From: an uncultured virus (IMG/VR IMGVR_UViG_3300025848_000036)
Taxonomy: Duplodnaviria; Heunggongvirae; Uroviricota; Caudoviricetes
Strand: one strand, 5' to 3'
DNA: 20,000 nucleotides
Virus record (IMG/VR): IMGVR_UViG_3300025848_000036
Part shown: positions 1,794 to 17,394 of the stretch, one piece after another
Position numbering within the stretch: position 1 is the stretch's first letter
How the letters are laid out: every line of letters starts with the position of its first letter
Made by a program: the position numbers and the translations under genes
Notes under the pieces: generated by a model
The model's input: the letters and a program-made list of their open reading frames with translations, nothing else
The model's database searches: none
What the model was told of the DNA's origin: nothing

Positions 1794-2615
1794 TCAAGCC
1801 TTTTGCATTTCTTCTACAAGTCTCCATATCTTAGTAAGGTCTACTTGGTCTGTGTGGATAAGAAACTCTTGAATACCCCATTTTTCTGCAATATCTTTTA
1901 ATTGTTTTACGACTTGCTCATGCGTACCTTTAATTGGGTGTTTATCATGTTTTCTAAATGCATAATCATGATATTCAATACTTTCAGGGTCTTGCCCTTC
2001 ATCAAGAATTAAAGGATCTATAACAAAAAGTAACTTGGCTTTGATTCTAGACATTGTTTCTTCAGTAAGCATGCGATCATTAATTATGATATAGTCTGCA
2101 TACTCATTTGCTGTCCTGATTGTGGTATCAGATGCTCCAACCACATATAGCACAGTCCTAAATTCATCTTCTACGCCCAATTTTTTATGTTCTTCCAAAA
2201 GCACTTTAAATTTTTTCATCCATCTTTCTGTTAATGCAACACGCTTTTCGTGGCTATTAATCAATTCTACATCCCATGGATAATCTCTAATAACCTTTTG
2301 TTCTATTTCGCCTCTATAGTTGCCACTAATAAGATTAAGATCTAATCTGTGTTTACCCCATCTTTGTGCAGTTACAAACGTTTTCATGGCATATTCTGGA
2401 GACATACCATAAGCAGGCAAAGCAATCATTATTTTAATTTTGACGGTATGCTCAAATATATCTGATAAATGTAATAAAAAATCTGTTCCGTATGGACCAT
2501 ATGGCAATAGTACAGATACTATATTCCTGTTTTCTAAAAACATGAACATATCCCTTAAGCCTTTTTTGGTATTGGGCCAATTATTTCTATGCATCCAATG
2601 GAATTTGTATGCCAC
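1794..2615 (-). CDS. Luciferase-like (LLM class) flavin-dependent monooxygenase, compact form
   Basis: SVLLPYG, IMIAL..YGMSPEY, RLDLNLISG, YVVGASDTTIRTANEYAD and C-terminal GTHEQVVKQL...GIQEF resemble SsuD/LLM TIM-barrel motifs. Confidence 0.75.
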   Translation of the reverse strand: MAYKFHWMHRNNWPNTKKGLRDMFMFLENRNIVSVLLPYGPYGTDFLLHLSDIFEHTVKIKIMIALPAYGMSPEYAMKTFVTAQRWGKHRLDLNLISGNYRGEIEQKVIRDYPWDVELINSHEKRVALTERWMKKFKVLLEEHKKLGVEDEFRTVLYVVGASDTTIRTANEYADYIIINDRMLTEETMSRIKAKLLFVIDPLILDEGQDPESIEYHDYAFRKHDKHPIKGTHEQVVKQLKDIAEKWGIQEFLIHTDQVDLTKIWRLVEEMQKA

Positions 2616-2619
2616 TAGA

Positions 2620-3171
2620 CTACTCTCCTGATGTGTTTGTTAAATTTCCTAAAATTTCTGTATCAAAAAAGATCATCGCTATGTGTGTTCCTGGTTCAAA
2701 CTTTTTTTCTGGTCTAGAATGCTTAACCCTAGCAGGATAAAATGCTATTGCTTCGTTATCTTTTAATTCATAAGTATTACCATTAACAATTATTGGCCAA
2801 GAGGTATTTCCACTAAGTTGATAATCAACCATAAAAATATCTGCCTTGTCTTCATGTTCAACAAGGTGTGGTCTTCCATATTCTGGGGCATACTCAGTAT
2901 ATCCAGCACGAATAAACCTGACATCAAGCCCTTCTTCGTTGGCAATACTAATAATCTTATCCTTGACATGATCTGGCACTTCAAGTTCCAATGTGATCTT
3001 ACCTAAACTAACGTTATGAATTATTTTGTGGGTATCTGTAAATTCAGGTTCTGGCTCTTTAGCAAACTCTTCCCAGCGTTTAACGGCAGATGTTTCTTTA
3101 ATTTGATTTGCTTGATTACGCAAATTTAATATGTCATCTTCGGACAATAGTTCTTTGATGTGCTTTTCCAT
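2620..3171 (-). CDS. Putative 2OG-Fe(II) oxygenase (DSBH fold)
   Basis: HED...DYQL...WPI...LKDNEAIAF...KHSR gives an HxD...H triad. Start moved to ATG 3171 because TATAAT lies 7 nt upstream. Confidence 0.65.
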   Translation of the reverse strand: MEKHIKELLSEDDILNLRNQANQIKETSAVKRWEEFAKEPEPEFTDTHKIIHNVSLGKITLELEVPDHVKDKIISIANEEGLDVRFIRAGYTEYAPEYGRPHLVEHEDKADIFMVDYQLSGNTSWPIIVNGNTYELKDNEAIAFYPARVKHSRPEKKFEPGTHIAMIFFDTEILGNLTNTSGE

Positions 3172-3245
3172 ATAAACCATTATAGCGTATCTTTAAGTTC
3201 GGCGGTAAATAGAAATGTTAACCACCCCATGCTACTACCGTAGCA

Positions 3246-3815
3246 CTATTGGTTAGGAGTTTCTCGTGGCACCCATAATGTTTCATCACCATTGGCTGCA
3301 TATCTAGCAAACACAAATAACAGGTCTGATAAACGATTGAGGTATTTTGGTACTAAGGTATTGACTTCAGCACCGTCATTTGACATATGAACCACAAACG
3401 CCATCCAAACATCTCGTTCTGCCCTACGGACAATTGCTCTAGCATTATGCAATAATACTGCTCCTTGTGGTCCAGCAGGCAGGATAAATGAATGTAAAGG
3501 CTCTAGTTGAGAGTTATATTTATCGATTACATCTTCAAGAAATGTGATCTGGCTCTCAATGATTCGTAATCCCTCAGCAGGAAGCGGTACTGAGAGGTCT
3601 GCCCCTAAGTCAAATAGATCATTTTGAACCTGACCAAGAAGAGCGGAGATATAAGGATTAACAAATGTTCGTGCTAGACCAATTGCTGAGTTGGCTTCAT
3701 CCACAGACCCAATAGCCTCAATAAGTGGGCTAATCTTTGCAACTCTTTCGTTGTTACCAATAGAGGTAAGGCCTTCATCGCCTGTTTTTGTATAGATTTT
3801 TGTTAGGTGTACCAT
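3246..3815 (-). CDS. pduO: ATP:cob(I)alamin adenosyltransferase, PduO type
   Basis: KIYTKTGDxG, GSVDEANSAIG, QNDLFDLGADL, FILPAG, RAIVRRAER and YLNRLSDLLFVFAR signature motifs. Confidence 0.95.
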   Translation of the reverse strand: MVHLTKIYTKTGDEGLTSIGNNERVAKISPLIEAIGSVDEANSAIGLARTFVNPYISALLGQVQNDLFDLGADLSVPLPAEGLRIIESQITFLEDVIDKYNSQLEPLHSFILPAGPQGAVLLHNARAIVRRAERDVWMAFVVHMSNDGAEVNTLVPKYLNRLSDLLFVFARYAANGDETLWVPRETPNQ

Positions 3816-3821
3816 AGGTTA

Positions 3822-3850
3822 AGTTTATCAGATTTGGCACGGTATGTCAA
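3822..3850 (-). promoter_or_regulatory. sigmaA promoter of leaderless pduO
   Basis: TTGACA-17-TAAACT, 6 nt upstream of the ATG. Confidence 0.8.
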
Positions 3851-3984
3851 CTACGACTCCAACAATCCCTACATTTAGGTAAAGAATTATTATCTATTCC
3901 AATAGCCTTTTTACCACACTCACATATAAAAGTCTTGAATCCCAACAATATAGATAAATCATAGGGGTCATCATCAAGAGCCAC
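3847..3984 (-). CDS. Small Cys-rich protein, 45 aa, GTG start, leaderless
   Basis: Manually translated (VALDDDPYDL...CECGKK...CRDCW). TATAAT 6 nt upstream. Confidence 0.55.
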   Translation of the reverse strand: MALDDDPYDLSILLGFKTFICECGKKAIGIDNNSLPKCRDCWSRS

Positions 3985-3998
3985 AAGGCCATTATATA

Positions 3999-4127
3999 TT
4001 ATTCTTCAAATGATATTTGTTGCTCAAACATTTTGTCCTGACATTTTGGACATTGCTTAGTAATGTTATCAGTCCCATAATCAACCTTAAACATTACACC
4101 ACAACTAAAACATAATACATCGAGCAT
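3999..4127 (-). CDS. Small zinc-ribbon protein (MLDVLCFSCG...CPKC), leaderless
   Basis: Two CxxC motifs; TGC-TACAAT lies 6 nt upstream of ATG 4127. Confidence 0.65.
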   Translation of the reverse strand: MLDVLCFSCGVMFKVDYGTDNITKQCPKCQDKMFEQQISFEE

Positions 4128-4154
4128 ATTCTTATTGTAGCATATAATGGTATT

Positions 4155-4487
4155 ATGAACGAGGCTATTTTGTATATTTTGTATAGTCCAATGCATAGGG
4201 CTATCAAAATAGGGATGAGTGATATCTCAGGTAAAAGGTTTGCTCAACATAGGACCAAGGGATGGCTCCTTGTTGCCTATTGGCATTTTTTCGAACGGGA
4301 TCGAGCAAGAACCGTAGAATCCCTAGTACTAAAAACACTAAGAGAAAGATATGGACATGACAGGAACCAAGGTTTCCTTGATAAGTCAGATATGCCTCAA
4401 AATGGATACACTGAGACATTTGATGCTTCAAAGATAACACGCAAAGGTTTGATCCGTATGGTCAATAGAGCGATTAAGGCTGTTTGA
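4155..4487 (+). CDS. GIY-YIG / T5orf172-like domain protein
   Basis: ILYILY...IKIGMS...RFAQH...E pattern; leaderless, TATAAT at 4143-4148. Confidence 0.65.
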   Translation: MNEAILYILYSPMHRAIKIGMSDISGKRFAQHRTKGWLLVAYWHFFERDRARTVESLVLKTLRERYGHDRNQGFLDKSDMPQNGYTETFDASKITRKGLIRMVNRAIKAV

Positions 4488-4498
4488 TACCGCTGGTT

Positions 4499-4621
4499 TT
4501 AGCAGTTATGAGTATATCCACAATCAGGACATTTCTCTCCTGGATTTGCTACACAATCATCACACCAATCTGGTGCATCTTTCCAAGATTTGCCTAAAGA
4601 ATCATATTCTGGTTTGTCCAT
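4499..4621 (-). CDS. Small Cys-rich protein, 40 aa, leaderless (…WCDDCVANPGEKCPDCG…)
   Basis: Manually translated. Two CxxC motifs; TATACT 6 nt upstream. Confidence 0.6.
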   Translation of the reverse strand: MDKPEYDSLGKSWKDAPDWCDDCVANPGEKCPDCGYTHNC

Positions 4622-4641
4622 ATGTACAGTATATCGTAAAG

Positions 4642-4851
4642 TTATCCACAGGTTCGAATACCCTTGATAATACAGGTTTCAACTCCATCCCCATATCTAT
4701 GTTCAAACTCTCTACCCATACTCCATAGTTCATCGTCCTGGACAACTAGATATTTATTAATGGAATCAGGGTTTGTATCCCCTGCTATTCGTCCAATATG
4801 GTAGGTTTTGATCAGTTTGTCATTGATATAAATTGGAATATGTATAGGCAT
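4642..4851 (-). CDS. Hypothetical protein, paralog of 364..579, leaderless
   Basis: Paralogy; promoter TTGACA-17-TATACT (4858-4886) lies 6 nt upstream of the ATG. Confidence 0.85.
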   Translation of the reverse strand: MPIHIPIYINDKLIKTYHIGRIAGDTNPDSINKYLVVQDDELWSMGREFEHRYGDGVETCIIKGIRTCG

Positions 4852-4892
4852 GGTTTAAGTATATATTGGGATAAGGGGTTTGTCAAGCATAG

Positions 4893-4912
4893 TTATCCAC
4901 AAGTTATCCACA
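4893..4912 (+). promoter_or_regulatory. Tandem DnaA boxes
   Basis: TTATCCACA at 4893-4901 and 4904-4912; another at 4642-4650. Confidence 0.7.
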
Positions 4913-5071
4913 TAAAAATCTTACTGATATTTTTCTTAGATGGGGTTAAAGTGGAGTGAAGTGGAGGATAGTGGGTAATGGAGCATTTATATCGTAGCGG
5001 CTCGTAATGCCAAACCACCTATCCTCATATCCAAACAAAATATCCAAACAATTCCAAACCACATTTGCAGG

Positions 5072-5152
5072 ATTATAGCCCAAATATCCATATTTGTCAA
5101 ATAAAAATATATAAGGTTTGGGCATTATACCTGCAAAACCTCTGTTTGTCAA
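5072..5152 (-). promoter_or_regulatory. Two tandem perfect-consensus sigmaA promoters
   Basis: TTGACA-17-TATAAT at 5072-5100 and at 5124-5152. Confidence 0.8.
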
Positions 5153-5235
5153 GTATCTTCGTAAAGAAATTTTGAGCAAAATGCCCAAATAAATCAAATA
5201 ATGTTTGATATTATTTTATTTTGTTTGATATTGTT

Positions 5236-5871
5236 TTAAAACATAGAATTTTCTAAAGAAAAGGCTTTTGCAGTAGTATGCCATATAACTATAGCGTATC
5301 TATTGCCAGAGGTTACTTCTGTTGTACCGTGCCAGGTTTGAGACGGGAAGATCGTAATATCGCCTGGTACTGGATCATATACAAAACCACCTAAATCCTC
5401 AGTGTATAGATCAAAATTACTCTTTCTTTCAAACTCTGACAAATAGGCAATCTTTCCACCTTCAAACTCATTGTTTAAATATAATACACTTGAGCAAACT
5501 GTTGGATGAATTCCATGCTGATCTTTATGCATTCGTAATTGTAAACCAGGTGTTAGTTTGGTAAGGCTGATTCCTTCTATATAGAGATGTGGTCCATCGT
5601 AATGGTAATATTCTTTAAATACCGCTTCGGCTCTACGTGCATAATCGTAAAGTTTTTCCATAAGTGGTTTGGGATGTACCGAAGGAGCAAAATCATTTGG
5701 AACATTAGATCTATAAACATCTCCTCGATCGTAGGCTTGACCTATATGTTTCGTAAAGACTTTTGGATCTTCACAATGTTTGTCTATATAGTCTACCCAT
5801 TCCTGGGCCTCTGAATCTGAAATAAAATTATTAATGATCTTTATGTCGGGGATCAAGTTTATGCTCCTCAC
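5236..5871 (-). CDS. 2OG-Fe(II) oxygenase, prolyl 4-hydroxylase-like
   Basis: MHKD, SVLYLNNEFEGG, PGDITIFPS, WHGTTEVTSGNRY: HxD...H triad plus the 2OG-binding Arg. Confidence 0.9.
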   Translation of the reverse strand: MRSINLIPDIKIINNFISDSEAQEWVDYIDKHCEDPKVFTKHIGQAYDRGDVYRSNVPNDFAPSVHPKPLMEKLYDYARRAEAVFKEYYHYDGPHLYIEGISLTKLTPGLQLRMHKDQHGIHPTVCSSVLYLNNEFEGGKIAYLSEFERKSNFDLYTEDLGGFVYDPVPGDITIFPSQTWHGTTEVTSGNRYAIVIWHTTAKAFSLENSMF

Positions 5872-8636: not shown

Positions 8637-8688
8637 ACTTTTTCCTTTTTTTAGATTACTATAATTCTAGCATTTTTGGGCAGGTATG

Positions 8689-8919
8689 TCAAATATGCCC
8701 ACACCCACAGCCACAGCAGTAATTACATACAGTATCGTAGGATTCACAGTGCTGATCTAGATCTATATCCTCACCACACCTAGTACAGTTAAACATTGTA
8801 CGTGGACAGTCTTCATAAGGGAATTCCTCCTGTTCCTCGCAGGTACAGAAACCAAACTTCTCAACCTGAGTCTCATGAGTTAGTTCTGCTAAATCAGACC
8901 AATACATAGTATCCATCAT
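8689..8919 (-). CDS. Cys-rich hypothetical protein
   Basis: Start probably MMDTMYW at 8919/8916, overlapping the upstream stop; many Cys residues. Confidence 0.65.
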   Translation of the reverse strand: MMDTMYWSDLAELTHETQVEKFGFCTCEEQEEFPYEDCPRTMFNCTRCGEDIDLDQHCESYDTVCNYCCGCGCGHI

Positions 8920-9080
8920 TCCCCCCAGTATCTTAGGATAGTTTTCATTGTCAAACATAAGTGGCAATCACAATCTCCACCATTCATGTTTTCTATAAAA
9001 TCAAAATGAGAGTAATTATCCTCATAAATAGTAGTAACGAGTTCGTCTATGGTATATGGCTTATAGGTTGTTTGGGTCAT
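8916..9080 (-). CDS. Hypothetical protein, 54 aa, leaderless (MTQTTYKPYTIDELV...DCDCHLC)
   Basis: Manually translated. TTGACA-17-TAAAAT (9087-9115) lies 6 nt upstream of the ATG. Confidence 0.65.
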   Translation of the reverse strand: MTQTTYKPYTIDELVTTIYEDNYSHFDFIENMNGGDCDCHLCLTMKTILRYWGE

Positions 9081-9221
9081 ACATTTATTTTACTGGAATC
9101 ATGGGGAATTGTCAAGCCCTTCTTAATACGTTCTTAATGAAAATGTAATTAAAATCACATCTCGGGGGCTTTTTGTTTTTTATTTTATGATCTGCAAATA
9201 AAAAAAATAAAATAAAAAAGT

Positions 9222-9249
9222 GAGCAGTTTTAATTCATGCTCAGGAATT
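9222..9249 (-). ncRNA. Repeated pseudoknot motif, copy 1
   Basis: AAUUC CU GAGCA U GAAUU AAAAC UGCUC. Confidence 0.7.
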
Positions 9250-9256
9250 TTTTTAA

Positions 9257-10276
9257 TTATGCAACTTGCATAACATTCTGCACAACTTTTAGCAGACGAT
9301 TTTTTTCTGCGTTAATTGATGCATCGAAGCCAGAAGCAGCAGCAAGGATTGATTCGTTATTGCCACCACGAGCAGAGCGATACCAGTCAAGGCGTTCAGT
9401 AAGAGCGTTAAATGCACCCCACGCATTACCAGCAATCATGCCATTGAATTCGCCAGTGTAAATATCATTGATAACATCAATTTTATTTTCCCACTTCTTC
9501 AATGCGCCCTTAGCATCTTTTTCAGGCTTTGGATAAGCAGCAAGAACAATATCGTTAAATTGCTTAGCATTAACTTCTTGCGAAATCATAGCGTGAGCCA
9601 TTTTATCGAATTCGTCCATGTATGCATTAGCAAGACCAAGAGTCTCACGAGCAATCTGCACTTTACCATTGGCAGTTTGTGTGTGGCGAATCTTGAAAGA
9701 TTGCTTAACGCCATTTTTCTTACGACCTACGCCACCAAGAGCAAGGTTAAGAGTATTAGCGCATACTACACGAACAGGTGTAATTGATGCCTGAATAGCG
9801 ATTGAGCCATCGTGTGATGTGTTGATGAGCAAATAAGTTTTTACTTTATCTGCAACACCATTTGGGTCTAGGATTGTCTCACGCTCAAGAGCAAGAGAGC
9901 CAAATACTACACGACCGCCACGAATAGCACCAGCAGTTTCCCAACGACCTCCGCCGTCTAGGATATTATCACCAAATGAAAATAAATCTTCATTTTGCAA
10001 TACATGATAACGCTCACCAACAACACCAAGAACATCAGTTTGTGATGAATCAGTAGGATTGGTACGAACAACATATTGATAAGATTTATCAGATGTTAAG
10101 TGAGATGGAATTTCCATATCTTCTAATCTAACATTCCAATTAGATAGATTAGCAGCATCTAGCATTTCGCTAGTAGTTTTTTCTTCAGTGAATACAGTGC
10201 CTAGACCATGCCAAGCAGGTTCACGGAATGATGCGAATGAAGCAACGCCATTTTGCGTTTCGAGTTCATGAGCCAT
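9257..10276 (-). CDS. DUF932 / phage-plasmid-like protein (TIGR03299 type)
   Basis: MAHEL...REPAWHGLG, VGERYHVLQNE, WETAGA, YLLINTSHDGS, TPVRVVCANTL, IRHT, AWGAFNALTE; GAAAGGA RBS before ATG 10276. Confidence 0.9.
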   Translation of the reverse strand: MAHELETQNGVASFASFREPAWHGLGTVFTEEKTTSEMLDAANLSNWNVRLEDMEIPSHLTSDKSYQYVVRTNPTDSSQTDVLGVVGERYHVLQNEDLFSFGDNILDGGGRWETAGAIRGGRVVFGSLALERETILDPNGVADKVKTYLLINTSHDGSIAIQASITPVRVVCANTLNLALGGVGRKKNGVKQSFKIRHTQTANGKVQIARETLGLANAYMDEFDKMAHAMISQEVNAKQFNDIVLAAYPKPEKDAKGALKKWENKIDVINDIYTGEFNGMIAGNAWGAFNALTERLDWYRSARGGNNESILAAASGFDASINAEKNRLLKVVQNVMQVA

Positions 10277-10301
10277 TTTTTTCCTTTCGATTGTTAATTT
10301 A

Positions 10302-10330
10302 AGTATAACAGGACAGGCTGACAAATGCAA
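10302..10330 (-). promoter_or_regulatory. Promoter with TGTCAG spacer element
   Basis: TTGCAT-17-TATACT with extended TG. Confidence 0.75.
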
Positions 10331-10457
10331 ATCGAGATAGTTAAACATGGGGCAAATCGGACATGTGGCTTAAATCACAGGATCTTAAGGCGTGTCGTAA
10401 CTTGACAAATCAAAGTTTTGCCCCCCGAGCATTTTTGCCAGGAATAGAATTGAGAAG

Positions 10458-10483
10458 GGGCCTTTTAAACTCGTGCCCAGGAG
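10458..10483 (-). ncRNA. Repeated pseudoknot motif, copy 2
   Basis: CUC CU GGGCA C GAG UUU AAAAG GCCC. Confidence 0.65.
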
Positions 10484-10484
10484 C

Positions 10485-10519
10485 GGTAGATCCTAAAGAA
10501 AGGATGAAAGGGACCTACC
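10485..10519 (-). other. RNA hairpin with anti-SD-like loop
   Basis: GGUAGGUCC / GGAUCUACC stem; loop CUUUCAUCCUUUCUUUA. Confidence 0.6.
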
Positions 10520-10526
10520 AGTTCTT

Positions 10527-10937
10527 TCAATAGTCAACATTGTCTACAGACGATGACACATGTGTGATTTTGTCAATGTCATATGTAATTGCATCAAAAT
10601 CAATATCGCTGATGATTGAATCTACGTCTTCGCCTGCAGGTACTTCTACGGTAATGTAGTAAGTAACGTTTACTTCAACTTCAACTTCCTTAGTAAGTTC
10701 GAATCCACAAATTTCTGCAATCTCTTCTGCATTGGTTTGGGAAATCTCACGTTGCTCTAGGGCCTCAATTGTCCATGTATGCATACCGTCACGAATTCCC
10801 TGCAGTTCACCACGTGTTGCATAGTCACGTTGTGTTACACGCTGCACGTGCTCCTCTAACTGCTGAATGCGTTCGTCCTTTTGAGCAATTTGAGACTTAA
10901 GATAGTCCTCAGTGGCATTAATCATTGTTTGGTCCAT
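10527..10937 (-). CDS. Hypothetical protein with N-terminal coiled coil
   Basis: ORF track; TAATG coupling with the upstream gene. Confidence 0.8.
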   Translation of the reverse strand: MDQTMINATEDYLKSQIAQKDERIQQLEEHVQRVTQRDYATRGELQGIRDGMHTWTIEALEQREISQTNAEEIAEICGFELTKEVEVEVNVTYYITVEVPAGEDVDSIISDIDFDAITYDIDKITHVSSSVDNVDY

Positions 10938-11200
10938 TATTCAATATCCTTTCCCATTGAATCCATTTCGTTAATTGTTTCAAGCATATCATTTAACTGC
11001 GCTTCTGTCAAACAAGCGTGTGTGACTAATGAGGCTGTTAGTGAAGCAAGATGAGCAGAGTAGTGAAACATTGCGTCAGAAAATTCTTCGTCAGTCATAT
11101 TTTCACGAGATGAAGAAATTGACTTAGCCATAATTAATGTGCTAAAATCTGTGACGGCACTTCCAGTAGCGTCTTGAATTGCGAGTGCGGTTGATATCAT
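10937..11200 (-). CDS. Hypothetical protein
   Basis: AAAGGG RBS; promoter TTGCAT-17-TATGAT at 11230-11258. Confidence 0.8.
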   Translation of the reverse strand: MISTALAIQDATGSAVTDFSTLIMAKSISSSRENMTDEEFSDAMFHYSAHLASLTASLVTHACLTEAQLNDMLETINEMDSMGKDIE

Positions 11201-11339
11201 TTTTTCCCTTTCTTTTGTACAATAATATAATCATAGCACTGGGGTCTGACAAATGCAACTTAATAGGCCCTCTTAAAATGTGATTTGGGCCACATCCTCG
11301 GGGGGTCCAAAATGTCCGAATTATTTACGCATAAATTAT

Positions 11340-11365
11340 GAGCCTTTTAGTGCCATGCTCAGGGC
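11340..11365 (-). ncRNA. Repeated pseudoknot motif, copy 3
   Basis: GCC CU GAGCA U GGC ACU AAAAG GCUC. Confidence 0.65.
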
Positions 11366-11370
11366 GTGTA

Positions 11371-11509
11371 TCGCAATTTAACGTTATGCGAGAACGATCT
11401 CACTAGGGGACTTTCGCAGAAGATCTGCCGTGAACGCAAGTGAGAAAACTAAGTGAGTTCTTACTTACGACATTGGGCGAGAACACTCACGAAACTGCCC
11501 CTGTTTCGT
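11371..11509 (-). ncRNA. Candidate multi-hairpin structured RNA
   Basis: Stems 11489-95/11503-09, 11453-61/11480-90, 11398-404/11439-45, 11416-20/11424-28 and 11371-75/11387-91. Confidence 0.5.
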
Positions 11510-11515
11510 TCGCAA

Positions 11516-11683
11516 TTAGTAAGTTTTTACCATTGCAAATCGCTGTTGTCCATTTGCTAAGCGCAACATAACACGAGTTACATTTTTGCTTTGTGGCACA
11601 AACTTTTCAATTCGTCCTGTAACACCTGTTTTGCTTGTTGTGAATAAATCACCAATTTGGTAAGTGTATCCGCCTAATGTCAT
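11516..11683 (-). CDS. Small SH3/KOW-like beta protein, paralog of 12315..12482
   Basis: TYQIGDLFTTSKTGVTGRI; GAAAGG RBS; promoter at 11721-11749. Confidence 0.75.
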   Translation of the reverse strand: MTLGGYTYQIGDLFTTSKTGVTGRIEKFVPQSKNVTRVMLRLANGQQRFAMVKTY

Positions 11684-11771
11684 TTTGGGTCTTGCCTTTC
11701 TGTTTTTGGGTCTTATTATTATTTTACTAGATTTTGGCAGGGAAGTCAAATACCCTCCCCTGCCTATCTAA

Positions 11772-12197
11772 TTACAAGTATCTAGCGATAGCGTTGTAGG
11801 TAGAAGTAGAAACTACTTCCTCATCTGTCATCTTGAGAATACGGATTGCGTTCTCAATTTCCTCTTTCATTTCATTGTAAGAGTGTTGGTGTAGAACCTC
11901 AAAATCACGCTGTGGTTCAGCAGGAAAATCTGCTTCATTACAGGTTAGGTCAAAATCTACATTGAGAGTTTTGTTCCAAGAACGATAGTTAGTGCGGAAG
12001 TTTTCTGCTTTTGCTATGTTAGCAACAGCAAACTTGCCAACTTCCTTACGCCACTTTTCTCTTGCCTTCTCATACTTTGCTTCGTTTTCTGATTGGTTAG
12101 CCCAACTCTTGTTGAGTTCTGCTAATTTAGTTTCTAAAGCCTTGATGACCTTAGTTGTAGCGATTTTCACGCTAATTGCTTTTTGGTTTCTAGCCAT
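11772..12197 (-). CDS. Phage hypothetical protein
   Basis: AGAAAGGA RBS; promoter TTGATT-17-TATGAT at 12237-12265. Confidence 0.85.
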   Translation of the reverse strand: MARNQKAISVKIATTKVIKALETKLAELNKSWANQSENEAKYEKAREKWRKEVGKFAVANIAKAENFRTNYRSWNKTLNVDFDLTCNEADFPAEPQRDFEVLHQHSYNEMKEEIENAIRILKMTDEEVVSTSTYNAIARYL

Positions 12198-12267
12198 TGG
12201 TATTTCCTTTCTTTTTGGGTTTTTGGGTCTTATGCTATCATAGCATTTCTACGATAGAAAATCAAGT

Positions 12268-12297
12268 GAGCAGTTTATCCTCCACTTGCTCAGGTGG
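12268..12297 (-). ncRNA. Repeated pseudoknot motif, copy 4
   Basis: CCAC CU GAGCA A GUGG AGGAU AAAC UGCUC. Confidence 0.7.
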
Positions 12298-12314
12298 CGT
12301 TAGCGTTTGCTAAA

Positions 12315-12482
12315 TTACTTTGCTGTCCAAGTTGTCCAGCGAGGTGTTCCAGCGACATCAAGTTTTACACGAACACTTTGTCCGTCTTTGTTTGGCTTGA
12401 TTTCTGTGATAGTGCCTGTTACCTTTGACTTCTGTGAAGTGTAGAGGTCGCCTACCTTGTAAGTTGCTGTTGCTACTGCCAT
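12315..12482 (-). CDS. Small SH3/KOW-like beta protein, paralog of 11516..11683
   Basis: TYKVGDLYTSQKSKVTGTI; AAAGGAG RBS; promoter at 12515-12543. Confidence 0.75.
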   Translation of the reverse strand: MAVATATYKVGDLYTSQKSKVTGTITEIKPNKDGQSVRVKLDVAGTPRWTTWTAK

Positions 12483-12656
12483 TTTCATTTCTCCTTTTTC
12501 TAGTTGATAATACAATTCTAACATTTTTTGAGATTTTTAGCAAATCCAAATCCACTATTTTTTGTGTGATTTAGACCACACGACAAATAGGGCAAAACGG
12601 ACATTATTGGTAGAGGAATAGGGCTATGAGTAATAGGATAAGTAATAAGGCTATTT

Positions 12657-13373
12657 TCACTTTTTACTCGCACTAAATACTATGTCTGCCTTGTTGAATA
12701 CGCATAGACTACATTTTACACACGCTGAGCCTTCTTTGTCAATTAGGGCAATTCGCTTAGCATTTTCAGGGCACTTAGCACCAGGCTTGCCAATCATTGC
12801 CTTTAAGTCTGCTTGACCTACCGCAAAATTTTTGGCAAGGTATGCAAGGCGTACTCCATTAGTTTTTAATTCTAAAGCAATTTCTTTATTCTCTTCATCA
12901 GTACTAAAATAGAGAGATAGATTAGAGATACCATTAAGAATTGTTGCTGCAGATCTAACACGAGTATAGACCCAGAATTGAACATCGCTATGAGTTTCGA
13001 TTACATCTTTCCATGCGTGTGCATAAGTATCATTAAAGAAATCACCGTCCCAGTGAATGCGGAATAGTTTAGGTGCGTCTTTCTTTTCACAATCACTTTT
13101 GAAATCAACAATCATCTCATTAAGCAGAGATACCATTGTTTCTTTATCTGCGTCTTTCAATAACTCCCAATTATGCAGGAGGACCGCTCTTACTCCCTTG
13201 TATACTCTTTCGAGTTTTCCTGCATAGCAAACGCTCTCACAAACTGAAGTGGCACCAGGACACGAGAAAGCCTTTCCAGCAGGCAATCCAAATGTGTTGG
13301 CAATTGTTGGGGTTTTTCCATTTTTTGAGACAGCATTAGTGACCTTCCTATCATTACTTCTTTTTAGTTTCAT
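12657..13373 (-). CDS. Phage gp88-like protein (radical-SAM-like Fe-S protein)
   Basis: FGLPAG...SCPGATSVCESVCYA, FRIHWDGDFF, FWVYTR, NLSLYFSTD, CP...CVKCSLC. Confidence 0.75.
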   Translation of the reverse strand: MKLKRSNDRKVTNAVSKNGKTPTIANTFGLPAGKAFSCPGATSVCESVCYAGKLERVYKGVRAVLLHNWELLKDADKETMVSLLNEMIVDFKSDCEKKDAPKLFRIHWDGDFFNDTYAHAWKDVIETHSDVQFWVYTRVRSAATILNGISNLSLYFSTDEENKEIALELKTNGVRLAYLAKNFAVGQADLKAMIGKPGAKCPENAKRIALIDKEGSACVKCSLCVFNKADIVFSASKK

Positions 13374-13522
13374 TTCTCATCCTTACTTTTATTTTCTAAT
13401 TCTATCATTTTTTTGTTATTTTGTCTAGTATAGTGTTTCTTACTCTTAACAAACGAGGCAGCATTAGACCTGCGTAATTCCATAAGGATACGCAATTGTT
13501 CAGGTGTCTTTTTTTGTCTCAT
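13370..13522 (-). CDS. Small basic protein, 50 aa, leaderless (MRQKKTPEQLRILMELRRSNAAS...)
   Basis: Manually translated. TTGCTT-17-TAAGAT 6 nt upstream; ATGA overlap with the gp88-like gene. Confidence 0.65.
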   Translation of the reverse strand: MRQKKTPEQLRILMELRRSNAASFVKSKKHYTRQNNKKMIELENKSKDEK

Positions 13523-13614
13523 AAAATAATCTTATCATAAAAATATCAGATAAGCAAATCATGGGAGGTTCTACTTAATCGTAACAAAACGGACATTTCG
13601 CCCCTCGGGGCTTT

Positions 13615-13845
13615 TTAGTCTTCTATATAAACATAGAAATCAAATTTTGCATCATCACTTACTTCAATTACCTCTAGTTCGCCATATTCATCTACATAAG
13701 AAATTGCATAACCATCTTTAAGTGAATTAATTTCTTTAACTTCACATACCATGCCATCAATACCAATTAAATCGTCAGGCATGAGTATATCAACACTGAA
13801 CACATCGACTTTTTTGAGATCCATATTCAATATTGTAGCAGTCAT
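13615..13845 (-). CDS. Hypothetical protein
   Basis: ORF track; ATGA overlap. Confidence 0.7.
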   Translation of the reverse strand: MTATILNMDLKKVDVFSVDILMPDDLIGIDGMVCEVKEINSLKDGYAISYVDEYGELEVIEVSDDAKFDFYVYIED

Positions 13846-14057
13846 TTTATTGCTACCTTGCCATTACGATAAAAAATCTTAGTGTGCATTTTGCCACTAG
13901 GTTCTGATAAGTTAATTGTGCGATACTCTACGGCATCTCCAAAGTCATTAAACTTCTGATAAGTTTCAACGGCAGTTAAAGCGTCGCTAAATCTACCAAC
14001 CCACTCAGGGCTAGTAGAATTATCATTAGTGCTAGTTACGGCATAAGTGTATTCCAT
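13842..14057 (-). CDS. Hypothetical protein
   Basis: ORF track; GAGGA RBS. Confidence 0.75.
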   Translation of the reverse strand: MEYTYAVTSTNDNSTSPEWVGRFSDALTAVETYQKFNDFGDAVEYRTINLSEPSGKMHTKIFYRNGKVAIK

Positions 14058-14058
14058 C

Positions 14059-14358
14059 TTAGTATTCCTCTCTTTCGATAATCCATGCGTCTAAGTGGTG
14101 AGCCTCAATAATAGCATGAGCAGGGGCAGTATTCAATCCACGCCATGACACGCCTTCAGGAAGTTCAATATCTGCGTCCCATAGTCCTAAATCATTTACT
14201 GCGTCAATAGCCTCAATACAAGGCTTGACCATAAACTTGGGCACTGGTGGATAGTGATTAGCAGATAAGTGGATACCAATCTGCGTTTCAATATCTAAGT
14301 GGATACCCAAATCCTCTAGTGTTCCGTCTGCCATTTCAGTTGCCATATTGCTTCCCAT
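14059..14358 (-). CDS. Phage hypothetical protein (HLSANHYPPVP...IIEAHHLDAW)
   Basis: ORF track; GGAGG RBS. Confidence 0.8.
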   Translation of the reverse strand: MGSNMATEMADGTLEDLGIHLDIETQIGIHLSANHYPPVPKFMVKPCIEAIDAVNDLGLWDADIELPEGVSWRGLNTAPAHAIIEAHHLDAWIIEREEY

Positions 14359-14654
14359 TAGTTAGCCTCCTGTGTAGTCCAAAGTTTATCCATTTCAGTA
14401 TAGTCTATCTCTGCGTTGTTAGCAAGGTAGCAGGTATAGCAATATAAAGCGTCCCAAGATACTTTATTCTCATTACAACCAATACAAGTTTCTTCCATCG
14501 CTACTTGATAGAAATCCTCATTAGTTAGGTGTTGAGGATTACAATCGCACCACTCAATATCAAAGTCCTCACCATTAGCCCAACCCTCATAGCCAAGCCC
14601 ATTACACATTTCGCAATTAGCAATCGCTTCAATCGCATTTTTCATTTTACTCAT
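14358..14654 (-). CDS. Cys-rich hypothetical protein (CEMCNG...CDCNP...CIGC...CYTC)
   Basis: Probable start 14654 after a GAGGA RBS; promoter at 14680-14701. Confidence 0.75.
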   Translation of the reverse strand: MSKMKNAIEAIANCEMCNGLGYEGWANGEDFDIEWCDCNPQHLTNEDFYQVAMEETCIGCNENKVSWDALYCYTCYLANNAEIDYTEMDKLWTTQEAN

Positions 14655-14703
14655 TTTTTCCTCTTTTCTTTCTAATTCAATCCTAGCAGTATGGTCTGAC
14701 ATT

Positions 14704-14919
14704 TTAGTAGTCCTCAACCCTCACGCTAACTGTTGCCCACTCATCTTTAAGTGAACCTGTTGGGCGGTATCTAATAGCAAAATCTAACCAACCCTCAGCA
14801 GGATAAGTATCCTCACGCTTCTCAGCATAGTTAATTATTCCGCCATTAAATCTGCGCTTCATTGAAGTTGGCGCATAGTATTGGTCAATTAGTAAATCAA
14901 CAATAGAATAACCTCTCAT
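14704..14919 (-). CDS. Hypothetical protein, distant paralog of 15765..15968
   Basis: YSIVDLL...GIINYAEK; AGAAAGGA RBS; promoter at 14951-14979. Confidence 0.75.
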   Translation of the reverse strand: MRGYSIVDLLIDQYYAPTSMKRRFNGGIINYAEKREDTYPAEGWLDFAIRYRPTGSLKDEWATVSVRVEDY

Positions 14920-15037
14920 TGTTTTTTCCTTTCTTTAGTTTCAGGCTTCCAGCCTATCATTTTTATTTTTAGAAATCAAATCGACACGCCGTAAATTACA
15001 TGCCCGTAATTCTGTGATCTTAAACACATACTTAAAG

Positions 15038-15058
15038 TTATACACAGCCTGTGGATAA
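15038..15058. promoter_or_regulatory. Inverted DnaA box pair
   Basis: TTATACACA-GCC-TGTGGATAA. Confidence 0.7.
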
Positions 15059-15086
15059 CCCCTCGGGCCATTTTAGTTGAAAGTTC

Positions 15087-15114
15087 AAGCAGTTTTAAAT
15101 CATGCTTAGGATTT
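15087..15114 (-). ncRNA. Repeated pseudoknot motif, copy 5
   Basis: AAAUC CU AAGCA U GAUUU AAAAC UGCUU. Confidence 0.7.
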
Positions 15115-15119
15115 TTATT

Positions 15120-15272
15120 TTACTTTTTTATTCTTTCAGTTCGCAAAGCAATTTGCAATCTGCGAATTTCTTTTTCAAGTTGAACATTACGATTCCAAAA
15201 TGCAATCATCATTCCAAGCGATCCAGCGAGTGCAATTACAATTGCGATTAGTGTTCCGTTATCTAGTATCAT
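15120..15272 (-). CDS. Small membrane protein, 50 aa (MILDNGTLIAIVIALAGSLGMMIAFW...)
   Basis: Manually translated. One TM segment plus a basic tail; ATGA overlap. Confidence 0.65.
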   Translation of the reverse strand: MILDNGTLIAIVIALAGSLGMMIAFWNRNVQLEKEIRRLQIALRTERIKK

Positions 15273-16980: not shown

Positions 16981-17196
16981 ATCCTAACATAGACCACTGA
17001 CATTTTCAGGGGTATAAATGGGATAAATTGGACATTGTGGCGTACCTCACATATGACGTACATCACATACGTAGTTATCCACAGAGTTATCCACAGCCCC
17101 GAGGAGATGTCCGTTTTGCCCTATTTATGGTGTGGGGTACATCACATGCGACACGCCGTGGTAGGACTTGACTTTTGGGGAATAGTGTGCTATTAT
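16981..17196. promoter_or_regulatory. Divergent regulatory hub: two outward promoters, 3 CRP-like boxes, 2 DnaA boxes, CCCGAG, 2 GGACAT motifs and a GACAC box
   Basis: DnaA boxes at 17075-83 and 17087-95; CRP-like boxes at 17036, 17052 and 17131; plus-strand promoter TTGACT-17-TATTAT at 17168-17196. Confidence 0.75.
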
Positions 17197-17247
17197 TCTA
17201 CTATAAGAAAAATTAAATAAGAAAGTATCTAAGAAAGGATAACTAAA

Positions 17248-17394
17248 ATGAATACATTTAACAAACTTCACCCAATCTGTCCAACATGTGGACATGTATC
17301 CCCTGAAAGTCAGGATAGGATATGCCCTAAAGACAAGACCTACAAGGTCATGGAAATCCTCACATTTGATGAGAACATGTACCTTGTGAGGTAA
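17248..17394 (+). CDS. Small Cys protein, 48 aa (MNTFNKLHPICPTCG...ICPKD)
   Basis: Manually translated. AGAAAGGA RBS. Confidence 0.65.
   Translation: MNTFNKLHPICPTCGHVSPESQDRICPKDKTYKVMEILTFDENMYLVR

What the first reader, a model, noticed from the sequence alone, without database searches (positions are those of the whole stretch)
9222..15114. Five-copy covarying mini-pseudoknot RNA placed 3' of stop codons
Seen in sequence, read on the transcribed (minus) strand: 9222-9249 AAUUC-CU-GAGCA-U-GAAUU-AAAAC-UGCUC; 10458-10483 CUC-CU-GGGCA-C-GAG-UUUAAAAG-GCCC; 11340-11365 GCC-CU-GAGCA-U-GGC-ACUAAAAG-GCUC; 12268-12297 CCAC-CU-GAGCA-A-GUGG-AGGAUAAAC-UGCUC; 15087-15114 AAAUC-CU-AAGCA-U-GAUUU-AAAAC-UGCUU. 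Stem 1 differs in every copy yet always pairs (UUC/GAA, CUC/GAG, GCC/GGC, CCAC/GUGG, AUC/GAU). Stem 2 covaries (GAGC/GCUC, GGGC/GCCC, AAGC/GCUU), while the CU loop and the A-rich loop are conserved. The stems interleave, which is an H-type pseudoknot. All copies are intergenic and follow the last gene of a unit (5-17 nt after the stop in three cases), with no obligatory U-tail. Established: compact pseudoknots with a short C-starting loop 1 and an A-rich minor-groove loop occur in luteoviral frameshift elements and in ToxI antitoxin RNAs of type III TA systems. I cannot match this one to a family I know. Inference: a 3'-end exonuclease block or terminator, a protein-binding tag, or a processed decoy RNA.
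Basis: partly seen in the sequence, partly recalled or inferred. Interest (0 to 1): 0.85.

Follow-up and report, generated by a model that had tools for sequence, protein, structure and literature searches.

The report
Tiny RNA knot at message ends
The five repeats are real copies of an uncatalogued knotted RNA of about 27 bases that many bacterial viruses, and some bacteria, place at the tail end of genes and small RNAs, most likely to shield that end from being chewed back, although this job has not been tested.

Summary
They belong to a widespread ~27-nt H-type pseudoknot: in 80 related freshwater actinophage loci, 159 of 166 sequence-only cores pair both stems, none on the other strand; seven of nine pairs covary. 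No Rfam match or paper found. It also occurs in named phages of Mycobacterium, Bacillus, Lactobacillus, Roseobacter and Vibrio and behind a small chromosomal peptide gene (86 of 110). Placement points to a 3'-end role: just after stops, 3-19 nt before tRNAs (97 vs 4 after), just before hammerhead cut sites (20 of 27; reverse order 0 of 11), and kept here although the tRNA that follows it in 80 of 80 relatives is gone. Best reading: a 3'-to-5' exonuclease shield (0.55, inferred, untested). Rivals: ribosome brake, protein handle, RNase J block; its register matches the plant-virus coremin xrRNA but it lacks coremin's second hairpin. Not a tight terminator, not a readthrough signal. The scan noted this element before on other DNA (five earlier findings).

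The parts
9222..9249 (-). Pseudoknot copy 1, 7 nt after the DUF932 stop; followed here by an A/U-rich tract, in relatives by tRNA-Asp
   Evidence: 80 of 80 relatives: stop, knot, tRNA-Asp; no tRNA in the window
10458..10483 (-). Pseudoknot copy 2 (GGGC/GCCC stem 2, AG variant of loop 3), 43 nt after the stop of ORF 10527-10937
   Evidence: orthologous gap holds a knot in 36 of 42 relatives
11340..11365 (-). Pseudoknot copy 3, closing a 150-nt structured 3' region
   Evidence: RNA contig of run X3 ends at 11334, 6 nt past it (one run of three)
12268..12297 (-). Pseudoknot copy 4 (long loop 3), 17 nt after the stop of ORF 12315-12482, 3 nt before the next promoter-like -35
   Evidence: bridged by RNA contigs of X1 and X3; orthologous gap holds a knot in 46 of 56 relatives
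15087..15114 (-). Pseudoknot copy 5 (AAGC/GCUU stem 2), 5 nt after the stop of ORF 15120-15272
11366..11512 (-). Non-coding array of small structured RNA modules between the stop of ORF 11516-11683 and copy 3
   Evidence: folding z = -4.0, 0 of 200 shuffles as stable; its first module recurs in 11 distinct contexts; no Rfam match
9257..10273 (-). DUF932 gene (PF06067, phrog_1221), upstream of copy 1
   Evidence: best named relatives are Samistivirus (Streptomyces) terminal-repeat genes at 52-55% identity
10527..11200 (-). Two small ORFs of unknown function, unit ending in copy 2
   Evidence: no family
11516..11683 (-). 55-aa ORF, paralog of 12315-12482, upstream of the module array and copy 3
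   Evidence: 38% identity, E 4e-9
12315..12482 (-). 55-aa ORF upstream of copy 4
   Evidence: (weak DUF7258, below cut-off)
15120..15272 (-). 50-aa ORF upstream of copy 5
9087..9115 (-). Sigma-70-like promoter site of the next unit, 107 nt past copy 1
   Evidence: (11 of 12); consensus match only
10296..10324 (-). Promoter-like site ahead of DUF932, past copy 2
   Evidence: 9 of 12; RNA contigs of three runs stop at 10268-10282 (weak hint)
11224..11252 (-). Promoter-like site past copy 3
   Evidence: 10 of 12; RNA contigs stop at 11172-11206 (weak hint)
12237..12265 (-). Promoter-like site directly past copy 4
   Evidence: (9 of 12, with TG)

Best explanation
A ~27-nt H-type RNA pseudoknot (4-bp stem 1 closed by C-G, CU loop, 4-5-bp stem 2, one-base loop 2, A-rich loop 3) that acts as a portable, probably protein-independent 3'-end shield. 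Shown: the fold is conserved by covariation on one strand, and it sits at the 3' side of genes and small RNA modules and at the 5' side of tRNAs and self-cleaving ribozymes. Inferred: when RNase P, a ribozyme, an endonuclease or termination creates a 3' end just behind it, 3'-to-5' exonucleases (PNPase, RNase II/R) trim to the knot and stop, because the tail left is short and the triple-stranded knot is hard to open; the upstream early mRNA or small RNA keeps its stop codon and lives longer. Inferred: it is kept at least 5 nt behind phage stop codons so that a terminating ribosome need not unwind it.
For: Structure: 273 of 278 cores with stem 1 also have stem 2, 0 of 38 cores on the other strand have stem 1; pairing-blind core: 159 of 166 pair both stems, 0 found on the other strand, G.U 60 vs A.C 12 at paired sites; 7 of 9 pairs with double changes, 96.6% paired vs 30-40% for slid partners (rows were preselected for pairing). 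Polarity: 459 of 739 copies within 30 nt of an upstream same-strand stop vs 15.9% of 3760 random non-coding positions and 57 of 739 on the wrong strand; tRNA begins 3-19 nt behind it in 97 of 755, ends within 25 nt before it in 4 of 746 (79 of the 97 are tRNA-Asp, mostly one orthologous site); hammerhead behind it: 20 of 27 matches carry the full knot although its 5' half was not in the pattern, 18 with a type III cut site 5-21 nt behind it; reverse order 0 of 11 (6 of the 20 loci scanned confirmed as hammerheads by Rfam; many near-duplicates); twister-P1 directly behind it in L332; three knots in L296, two directly before hammerheads. It travels with what is upstream: kept in the window after loss of the tRNA-Asp present in 80 of 80 relatives; one non-coding module has it on its 3' side in 33 of 35, on its 5' side in 6 of 35. 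Tail length: 78 of 97 tRNA gaps are 7 nt or less and RNase R needs about 7 nt (PMC12320835, passages). One RNA contig ends 6 nt past copy 3.
Against: No function was tested. In 28 of 86 chromosomal copies a terminator-like hairpin follows, which would make a shield redundant. In that peptide family the knot sits a fixed 10 nt (82 of 86) after the last Cys codon while the stop wanders from 0 to 8 or more codons, often inside the knot, which fits a ribosome effect better. 160 of 755 copies have a Shine-Dalgarno-like site and ATG within 45 nt behind them, a place where a 5' block would also be useful. The closest fold in print, coremin, blocks 5'-to-3' decay, and that paper reports that luteoviral-type frameshift knots alone do not stall Xrn1 (PMC10321173). 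The RNA end near copy 3 is seen in one run of three; X1 and X2 contigs stop 135 and 258 nt earlier, and contigs cannot show ends. Six hammerhead cut sites lie 13-21 nt away, longer than RNase R needs. The test for GC hairpins replacing missing knots was inconclusive (p 0.13 and 0.21).
Confidence: 0.55

Rival explanations
1. Ribosome brake: the knot docks at the mRNA entry channel when the stop (or a key codon) is in the A site, and pauses the ribosome, aids termination, or stops 70S sliding into downstream RNAs.
For: Sharp lower edge in stop-to-core distance: 93 copies at 8 nt, 59 at 9, only 7 at 0-7, plus 11 with the stop inside the core. Fixed 10-nt offset from the last Cys codon in 82 of 86 chromosomal peptide genes regardless of stop position. 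Coremin stalls scanning ribosomes and promotes frameshifting (PMC10520033; PMC10321173); knots can block E. coli ribosomes (PMC3245918, abstract).
Against: Long tail of distances beyond 30 nt (280 of 739); copies close non-coding modules with no ORF (33 of 35; window copy 3 is 150 nt from a stop); the edge is also explained by avoidance of unwinding.
Confidence: 0.14
2. Protein handle: invariant bases are read by a conserved host factor (nuclease, S1, an RNA chaperone, RNA polymerase) that tags or protects the RNA.
For: C5, C6, U7, A12, G14, A20-22 are near-invariant across hosts of many phyla while paired positions vary; the U of loop 1 has no obvious partner.
Against: The invariants can be met by base triples, as in coremin and luteoviral knots (PMC10321173); no co-occurring phage protein was sought or seen; part of the invariance comes from the search patterns.
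Confidence: 0.12
3. Prokaryotic coremin: a 5'-to-3' block for RNase J that saves the RNA downstream (next cistron, pre-tRNA, 3'-UTR small RNA).
For: Same register as coremin: 4-bp hairpin closed by C-G, loop from a pyrimidine to a penultimate A, 5-nt A-rich spacer, then CU (PMC10520033; PMC10321173). A flaviviral xrRNA blocks RNase J1 (PMC5760640, passages). Most named carriers have hosts in groups with RNase J (group-level knowledge).
Against: It lies 5' of ribozyme and RNase P cut sites that would sever it from the RNA it should protect. Coremin needs a hairpin right behind; here one starts within 3 nt in only 10% of 219 and 19% of 440 non-tRNA copies, and in none of the five window copies. 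Full knots occur in Vibrio phage D456 and a Coxiellaceae bin; no RNase J over cut-off in that bin or in Aliivibrio fischeri (bin completeness unknown), and beta/gamma-proteobacteria mostly lack it (PMC3997798). No RNA cover behind window copy 1 in three RNA runs is listed only as a non-finding.
Confidence: 0.1
4. Transcription terminator or pause signal without a U-tract.
For: In the window each copy lies between a stop and the next promoter-like site; downstream promoter-like sites in 74 of 276 actinophage copies vs 6 upstream; 176 of 755 copies have a T-rich stretch behind.
Against: tRNAs, ribozymes and ribosome-binding sites follow within a few nt with no room for a promoter; RNA contigs bridge copy 4; real terminator-like hairpins follow it in 28 of 86.
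Confidence: 0.04
5. A new minimal self-cleaving ribozyme or endonuclease signal.
For: Its contexts (after stops, near tRNAs and other ribozymes) are those of bacterial self-cleaving ribozymes (PMC5737381, passages); arrays of modules separated by knots.
Against: Redundant 5-8 nt before a hammerhead cut; 27 nt is smaller than known natural nucleolytic ribozymes (own knowledge); no conserved sequence beyond the knot.
Confidence: 0.03
6. A DNA site (operator, recombination repeat) whose pairing is incidental.
For: Clustered with other repeated DNA boxes in the early region; modules appear shuffled between copies.
Against: Two interleaved covarying stems, G.U over A.C 60 to 12, strict strand polarity: 127 multi-copy loci, none mixed.
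Confidence: 0.02

Closest known systems
Coremin motif (xrRNA-C) and its Watson-Crick variant xrRNA-WCC of plant and other eukaryotic RNA viruses (PMC10520033, PMC10321173)
   Same: 4-bp first hairpin with C-G closing pair, loop starting with a pyrimidine and with a penultimate A, a 5-nt spacer ending AAA then CU in the same register; loop-spacer pseudoknot; often placed just after a stop codon.
   Different: 8-nt loop CU-NNNN-A-H instead of YGAD/YGNNAD; 4-5-bp Watson-Crick stem 2; no obligatory second hairpin; found in DNA phages and bacterial chromosomes; context points to guarding the upstream, not the downstream, RNA.
Luteovirus-type -1 frameshift pseudoknots (BWYV, PLRV; as described in PMC10321173)
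   Same: Size, H-type topology, short C-starting loop 1, one-base loop 2, A-rich loop crossing stem 1.
   Different: Non-coding position, no frameshift or readthrough frame, longer stem 2, multi-copy dispersal.
3' stem-loop barriers of bacterial mRNA (intrinsic terminator hairpins, REP elements; own knowledge, PMC3997798 passages for terminator resistance to 3' exonucleases)
   Same: Position after stop codons and between cistrons; proposed job.
   Different: Pseudoknot rather than hairpin, fixed tertiary core, no U-tail, tight coupling to tRNA and ribozyme cut sites.
ToxI/type III antitoxin pseudoknot repeats (recalled, not fetched)
   Same: Small H-type pseudoknot RNA in multiple copies; phages are known to mimic them.
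   Different: No Rfam match, no tandem array of identical units, no toxin gene beside it in the window.
Theta ribozymes (PMC10879173, passages) and RAGATH motifs (Rfam)
   Same: Small phage RNAs tied to tRNAs and to hammerhead/twister neighbourhoods.
   Different: Theta ribozymes process tRNA 3' ends and are double pseudoknots; this knot lies 5' of tRNAs; no RAGATH model matched the knot.

Membership tests
H-type pseudoknot | Two interleaved stems supported by covariation | tested here: met
   three stem-1 pairs and four stem-2 pairs with double changes
H-type pseudoknot | Both stems form at once in solution | not testable with these tools
   needs probing or a structure
Any Rfam 15 family | Match to a covariance model | tested here: not met
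   Searches (window, E up to 10; 49-nt stretch), 23, 85, 93: no family covers the knot; models cannot score pseudoknot pairs and short RNAs are weakly detected
Coremin xrRNA-C / WCC | 4-bp hp1 followed by a spacer ending AAA-CU in register | tested here: met
   649 of 762 copies have this spacing; compare PMC10520033
Coremin xrRNA-C / WCC | Loop consensus YGAD or YGNNAD (G at position 1 for WCC) | tested here: not met
   loop begins CU in 758 of 762; PMC10520033, PMC10321173
Coremin xrRNA-C / WCC | Second hairpin directly after the spacer | tested here: not met
   10% of 219 and 19% of 440 non-tRNA copies; none of five window copies
Coremin xrRNA-C / WCC | Stalls a 5'-to-3' exoribonuclease | not testable with these tools
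   needs Xrn1/RNase J assay
Readthrough / frameshift stimulator | Open frame continuing past the stop or a coding context | tested here: not met
   median 7 codons to the next in-frame stop, 285 of 459 within 10; stops are UAA in 369 of 549; slippery sites were not searched
Intrinsic terminator | GC hairpin followed by a U-tract, ending the transcript | tested here: not met
   no copy called by the terminator scan; T-rich tail in 176 of 755; tRNA follows in 80 of 80
Type III antitoxin (ToxI-like) | Tandem near-identical repeats directly upstream of a ToxN-like toxin | tested here: not met
   copies dispersed 0.9-2.8 kb apart; neighbours have no such family in PHROGs or Pfam
Self-cleaving ribozyme | Site-specific self-cleavage | not testable with these tools
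   no known class matched
3' exonuclease barrier | RNA 3' ends accumulate just behind it | tested here: inconclusive
   one of three RNA runs has a contig ending 6 nt past copy 3; contigs only

The most novel reading that the evidence does not exclude
A pan-bacterial, protein-independent exonuclease-resistant RNA working from the 3' side: a 27-nt relative of the coremin fold that phages and bacteria bolt onto mRNAs and small RNAs and pair with RNase P sites or self-cleaving ribozymes to make defined, stable 3' ends (a cut-and-cap cassette), and that a family of chromosomal 17-25-residue Cys peptides has co-opted as a codon-positioned ribosome stop.
Probability: 0.3. Interest if true: 0.88.

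Novelty: new variant of a known kind. Interest (0 to 1): 0.74.

Why it matters
If the reading holds, this is one of the smallest and most widespread uncatalogued structured RNAs of prokaryotes and their viruses, and it offers a testable answer to a standing question: what phage self-cleaving ribozymes and isolated tRNAs between genes are for (cutting long transcripts into units whose new 3' ends are pre-capped). It would link a phage element to the unsolved coremin fold, giving a Watson-Crick, covariation-rich version for structure work, and supply a 27-nt portable 3' stabiliser for RNA engineering. It is directly testable with synthetic RNA and in laboratory hosts (Mycobacterium smegmatis phage Labelle and Roseobacter phage SIO1 carry full copies).

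Tried and rejected
No own genome is held; the nearest record G001 (24.8 kb) shows the same copies (its stricter pattern skips copy 3). Rfam: no match in window, a 49-nt stretch, 20 mixed loci, 9 related loci, 20 hammerhead loci. Literature: ten searches found no description of the element; the literal-motif search gave one unrelated paper. Supplements of PMC10690425: seven files searched without a hit, files 1 and 2 too large; supplement of PMC5737381 unreadable; the 2015 RAGATH paper PMC4509812 not held. The motif could be listed in those unseen files. Named Streptomyces relatives Bmoc and Jay2Jay lack it in their first 16 kb. Readthrough and selenocysteine recoding rejected (stop type and position vary). 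Hairpin-replaces-knot test: first run cut regions wrongly (p 0.13), second still had boundary errors (p 0.21); inconclusive. In GTDB genomes the 17-base pattern is largely chance: only 51 of 122 matches have stem 1. Of ten named-phage loci fetched for the motif, six carry a full knot; Erwinia Berlingot and E. coli phages ST32 and flopper have only a 2-bp stem 1 plus a mismatch, Synechococcus S-EIVl has one C.A mismatch in stem 2; Pseudomonas BLAST hits were 19-nt matches inside genes. The chromosomal peptide has no NCBIfam family. RNA runs: no cover at 8667-9200 behind copy 1 in X1-X3 is a hole, not evidence. Sequence look-up in earlier findings gave nothing.

Full report
Observation. All are intergenic; stem 1 begins 7, 43, 150, 17 and 5 nt after the upstream stop and each is followed, 3-134 nt on, by a sigma-70-like site (such sites are only modestly enriched window-wide, 93 vs 71 +/- 9).

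Setting. The window is an early region of short, separately promoted genes of a freshwater phage. Its DUF932 and GP88 genes match the terminal-repeat genes of Streptomyces Samistiviruses at 52-55%, so an actinobacterial host is inferred. Three freshwater metatranscriptomes hold part of it. In five near-complete relatives of 109-117 kb, 25 of 26 pattern matches lie in one stretch of at most about 6 kb each.

Is it a structured RNA? In 80 loci fetched by the DUF932 protein, 273 of 278 cores with stem 1 also have stem 2, and none of 38 cores on the other strand has stem 1. A core that presupposes no pairing gives 166 distinct elements on the gene strand, 159 pairing in both stems, and none on the other strand; wobble G.U outnumbers A.C 60 to 12. 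In 498 distinct elements the top corrected mutual-information pairs are the stem-1 and stem-2 pairs plus an adjacent CU/AG swap at the end of loop 3. On 72 rows (70 of 137 elements that had passed the descriptor, plus two window copies) 7 of 9 pairs show double changes and slid partners pair at only 30-40%. The closing C-G, CU, the A before loop 2 and AAA are near-invariant.

Spread. Full knots are in Mycobacterium phage Labelle, Bacillus phage WH1, Lactobacillus phage phiAQ113, Roseobacter phage SIO1, Vibrio phage D456 and crAss-like cr7_1 (6 of 10 loci fetched); E. coli and Erwinia Chaseviridae have a weak stem 1 and S-EIVl one mismatch. In GTDB, 51 of 122 matches have stem 1, in Saccharibacteria, Clostridia, Chloroflexota, Cyanobacteria, Desulfobacterota and others. 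A chromosomal gene for a short peptide (consensus read from loci MKRFMIPRxAHCxxGC, no NCBIfam family) carries the knot in 86 of 110 distinct contexts found by the peptide alone.

Which side does it serve? Of 739 copies, 459 lie within 30 nt of an upstream stop (random non-coding positions 15.9% of 3760; wrong strand 57) with a sharp edge: 93 at 8 nt from stop to core, 7 at 0-7, 11 with the stop inside. No locus mixes strands (0 of 127). A tRNA starts 3-19 nt behind it in 97 of 755 copies but ends shortly before it in 4 of 746; 79 of the 97 are tRNA-Asp and largely one site. All 80 relatives read stop, knot, tRNA-Asp, yet the window keeps the knot with no tRNA. Hammerhead and twister ribozymes lie directly behind it. 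A dedicated two-way scan found the full knot before a hammerhead core in 20 of 27 matches, 18 with a type III cut 5-21 nt behind it, and in 0 of 11 matches in the reverse order within 35 nt (several near-duplicates; hammerhead core recalled, 6 of 20 loci scanned confirmed by Rfam). One non-coding module has the knot 3' in 33 of 35 and 5' in 6 of 35. In every such case cutting leaves the knot at the 3' end of the upstream piece, usually with a tail near or below the ~7 nt RNase R needs (PMC12320835, passages). RNA contigs add little: one of three ends 6 nt past copy 3, and copy 4 is bridged.

Mechanism. Best: a 3'-end shield against 3'-to-5' exonucleases (0.55); structure and polarity are shown, the block is inferred. 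Against it: redundancy with terminator-like hairpins in 28 of 86 chromosomal copies; a fixed 10-nt offset from the last Cys codon in 82 of 86 while the stop moves over 0-8 or more codons, which suggests a ribosome brake there (PMC3245918, abstract); 160 of 755 copies sit just before a ribosome-binding site; and the hairpin-substitution test failed to decide. Readthrough is rejected, a tight terminator is disfavoured.

Comparison. No Rfam family covers it. The closest fold in print, a lead from earlier finding e1-6119916 that I checked, is coremin: same hairpin size, closing pair, spacer and CU register (PMC10520033, parts 1-2 of 6; PMC10321173, parts 1 and 3 of 6). It fails membership on loop consensus and on the required second hairpin. 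A coremin-like RNase J block is conceivable (PMC5760640, passages) but the knot lies on the wrong side of cut sites and occurs where RNase J was not found (PMC3997798, passages); the latter rests on few, partly binned genomes. Other papers seen as passages: PMC10690425, PMC5737381, PMC3014915, PMC10879173. Ten searches found no description; unseen supplements and subscription papers may hold one. ToxI, REP and ribozyme size comparisons are recalled.

Novelty and verdict. A real, widespread, apparently uncatalogued RNA family: a known kind of fold in a new setting and probably a new polarity of use. My 3'-shield reading was recorded, before the earlier notes were seen; five of them describe the same element on other DNA and are not independent support. 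New here: the two-way hammerhead test, retention after tRNA loss, the module arrays, the host range against RNase J, and the chromosomal peptide family with its codon-fixed spacing. Interest 0.74.

Noticed in passing
window 11366-11512 (-); L136, L140, L142, L143, L157, L158, L172, L188, L203 and others: Array of small conserved RNA modules in a 3' region; the first has a hairpin whose G-rich loop could pair with a GCCC further on (a second pseudoknot-like motif). z = -4.0, 11 distinct contexts, no Rfam match.
   Followed up: partly
L144 8930-9130, L171 9100-9270, L175, L188, L208, L336, L356: Relatives carry shuffled sets of at least six other non-coding modules in the same gaps, each often closed by the knot; candidates for decoy or sponge RNAs.
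   Followed up: partly
L225, L236, L255, L276, L283, L311, L315, L323, L330, L632-L748: Unannotated chromosomal gene for a 17-25-residue peptide ending in HCxxGC, found in diverse anaerobic and marine contigs, with the knot 10 nt after the last Cys codon in 82 of 86; no NCBIfam family.
   Followed up: partly
L296 2400-3420 (-): Phage-like contig in a Polynucleobacter bin with three knots, two directly before type III hammerheads, each between small genes.
   Followed up: yes
window 9200-9221 (-): The tRNA-Asp that follows DUF932 in 80 of 80 relatives is absent and replaced by an A/U-rich inverted repeat.
   Followed up: yes
window 9166, 11302, 13609, 15067, 16456 (-) and 14990, 16173, 17157, 17411 (-): Repeated DNA boxes (CCCGAG, GGCGTGTCG, ATGTCC-type) in the promoter gaps of the early region, likely operators; similar boxes are visible in Samistivirus repeats.
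   Followed up: no
window 11740-11765 (-): A GC hairpin overlapping the next -35 box stands after ORF 11772 where 43 of 62 relatives have a knot; a relative in run X4 joins this stop to a knot.
   Followed up: partly
window 12657-13373 (-): GP88 gene is never followed by a knot (0 of 55 relatives), unlike its neighbours.
   Followed up: no
window 11516-11683 and 12315-12482 (-): Two 55-aa paralogs, 38% identical.
   Followed up: no
window 1794-5871: Accessory metabolic genes: luciferase-like monooxygenase, cobalamin adenosyltransferase, 2OG-Fe(II) oxygenase.
   Followed up: no
window 17000-17250: Switch of strand with divergent promoter-like sites and repeated TTATCCACA boxes, which resemble DnaA boxes (recalled).
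   Followed up: no
L002, L003, L061, L070, L086, L102: A conserved variant with a longer loop 2 and a conserved upstream stretch, possibly part of a larger RNA; L102 had no Rfam match.
   Followed up: no
L572 2380-2640, L580 6560-6800, L581 3150-3400: Chaseviridae of E. coli and Erwinia keep the core and spacing with a 2-bp stem 1, inside long non-coding stretches.
   Followed up: partly
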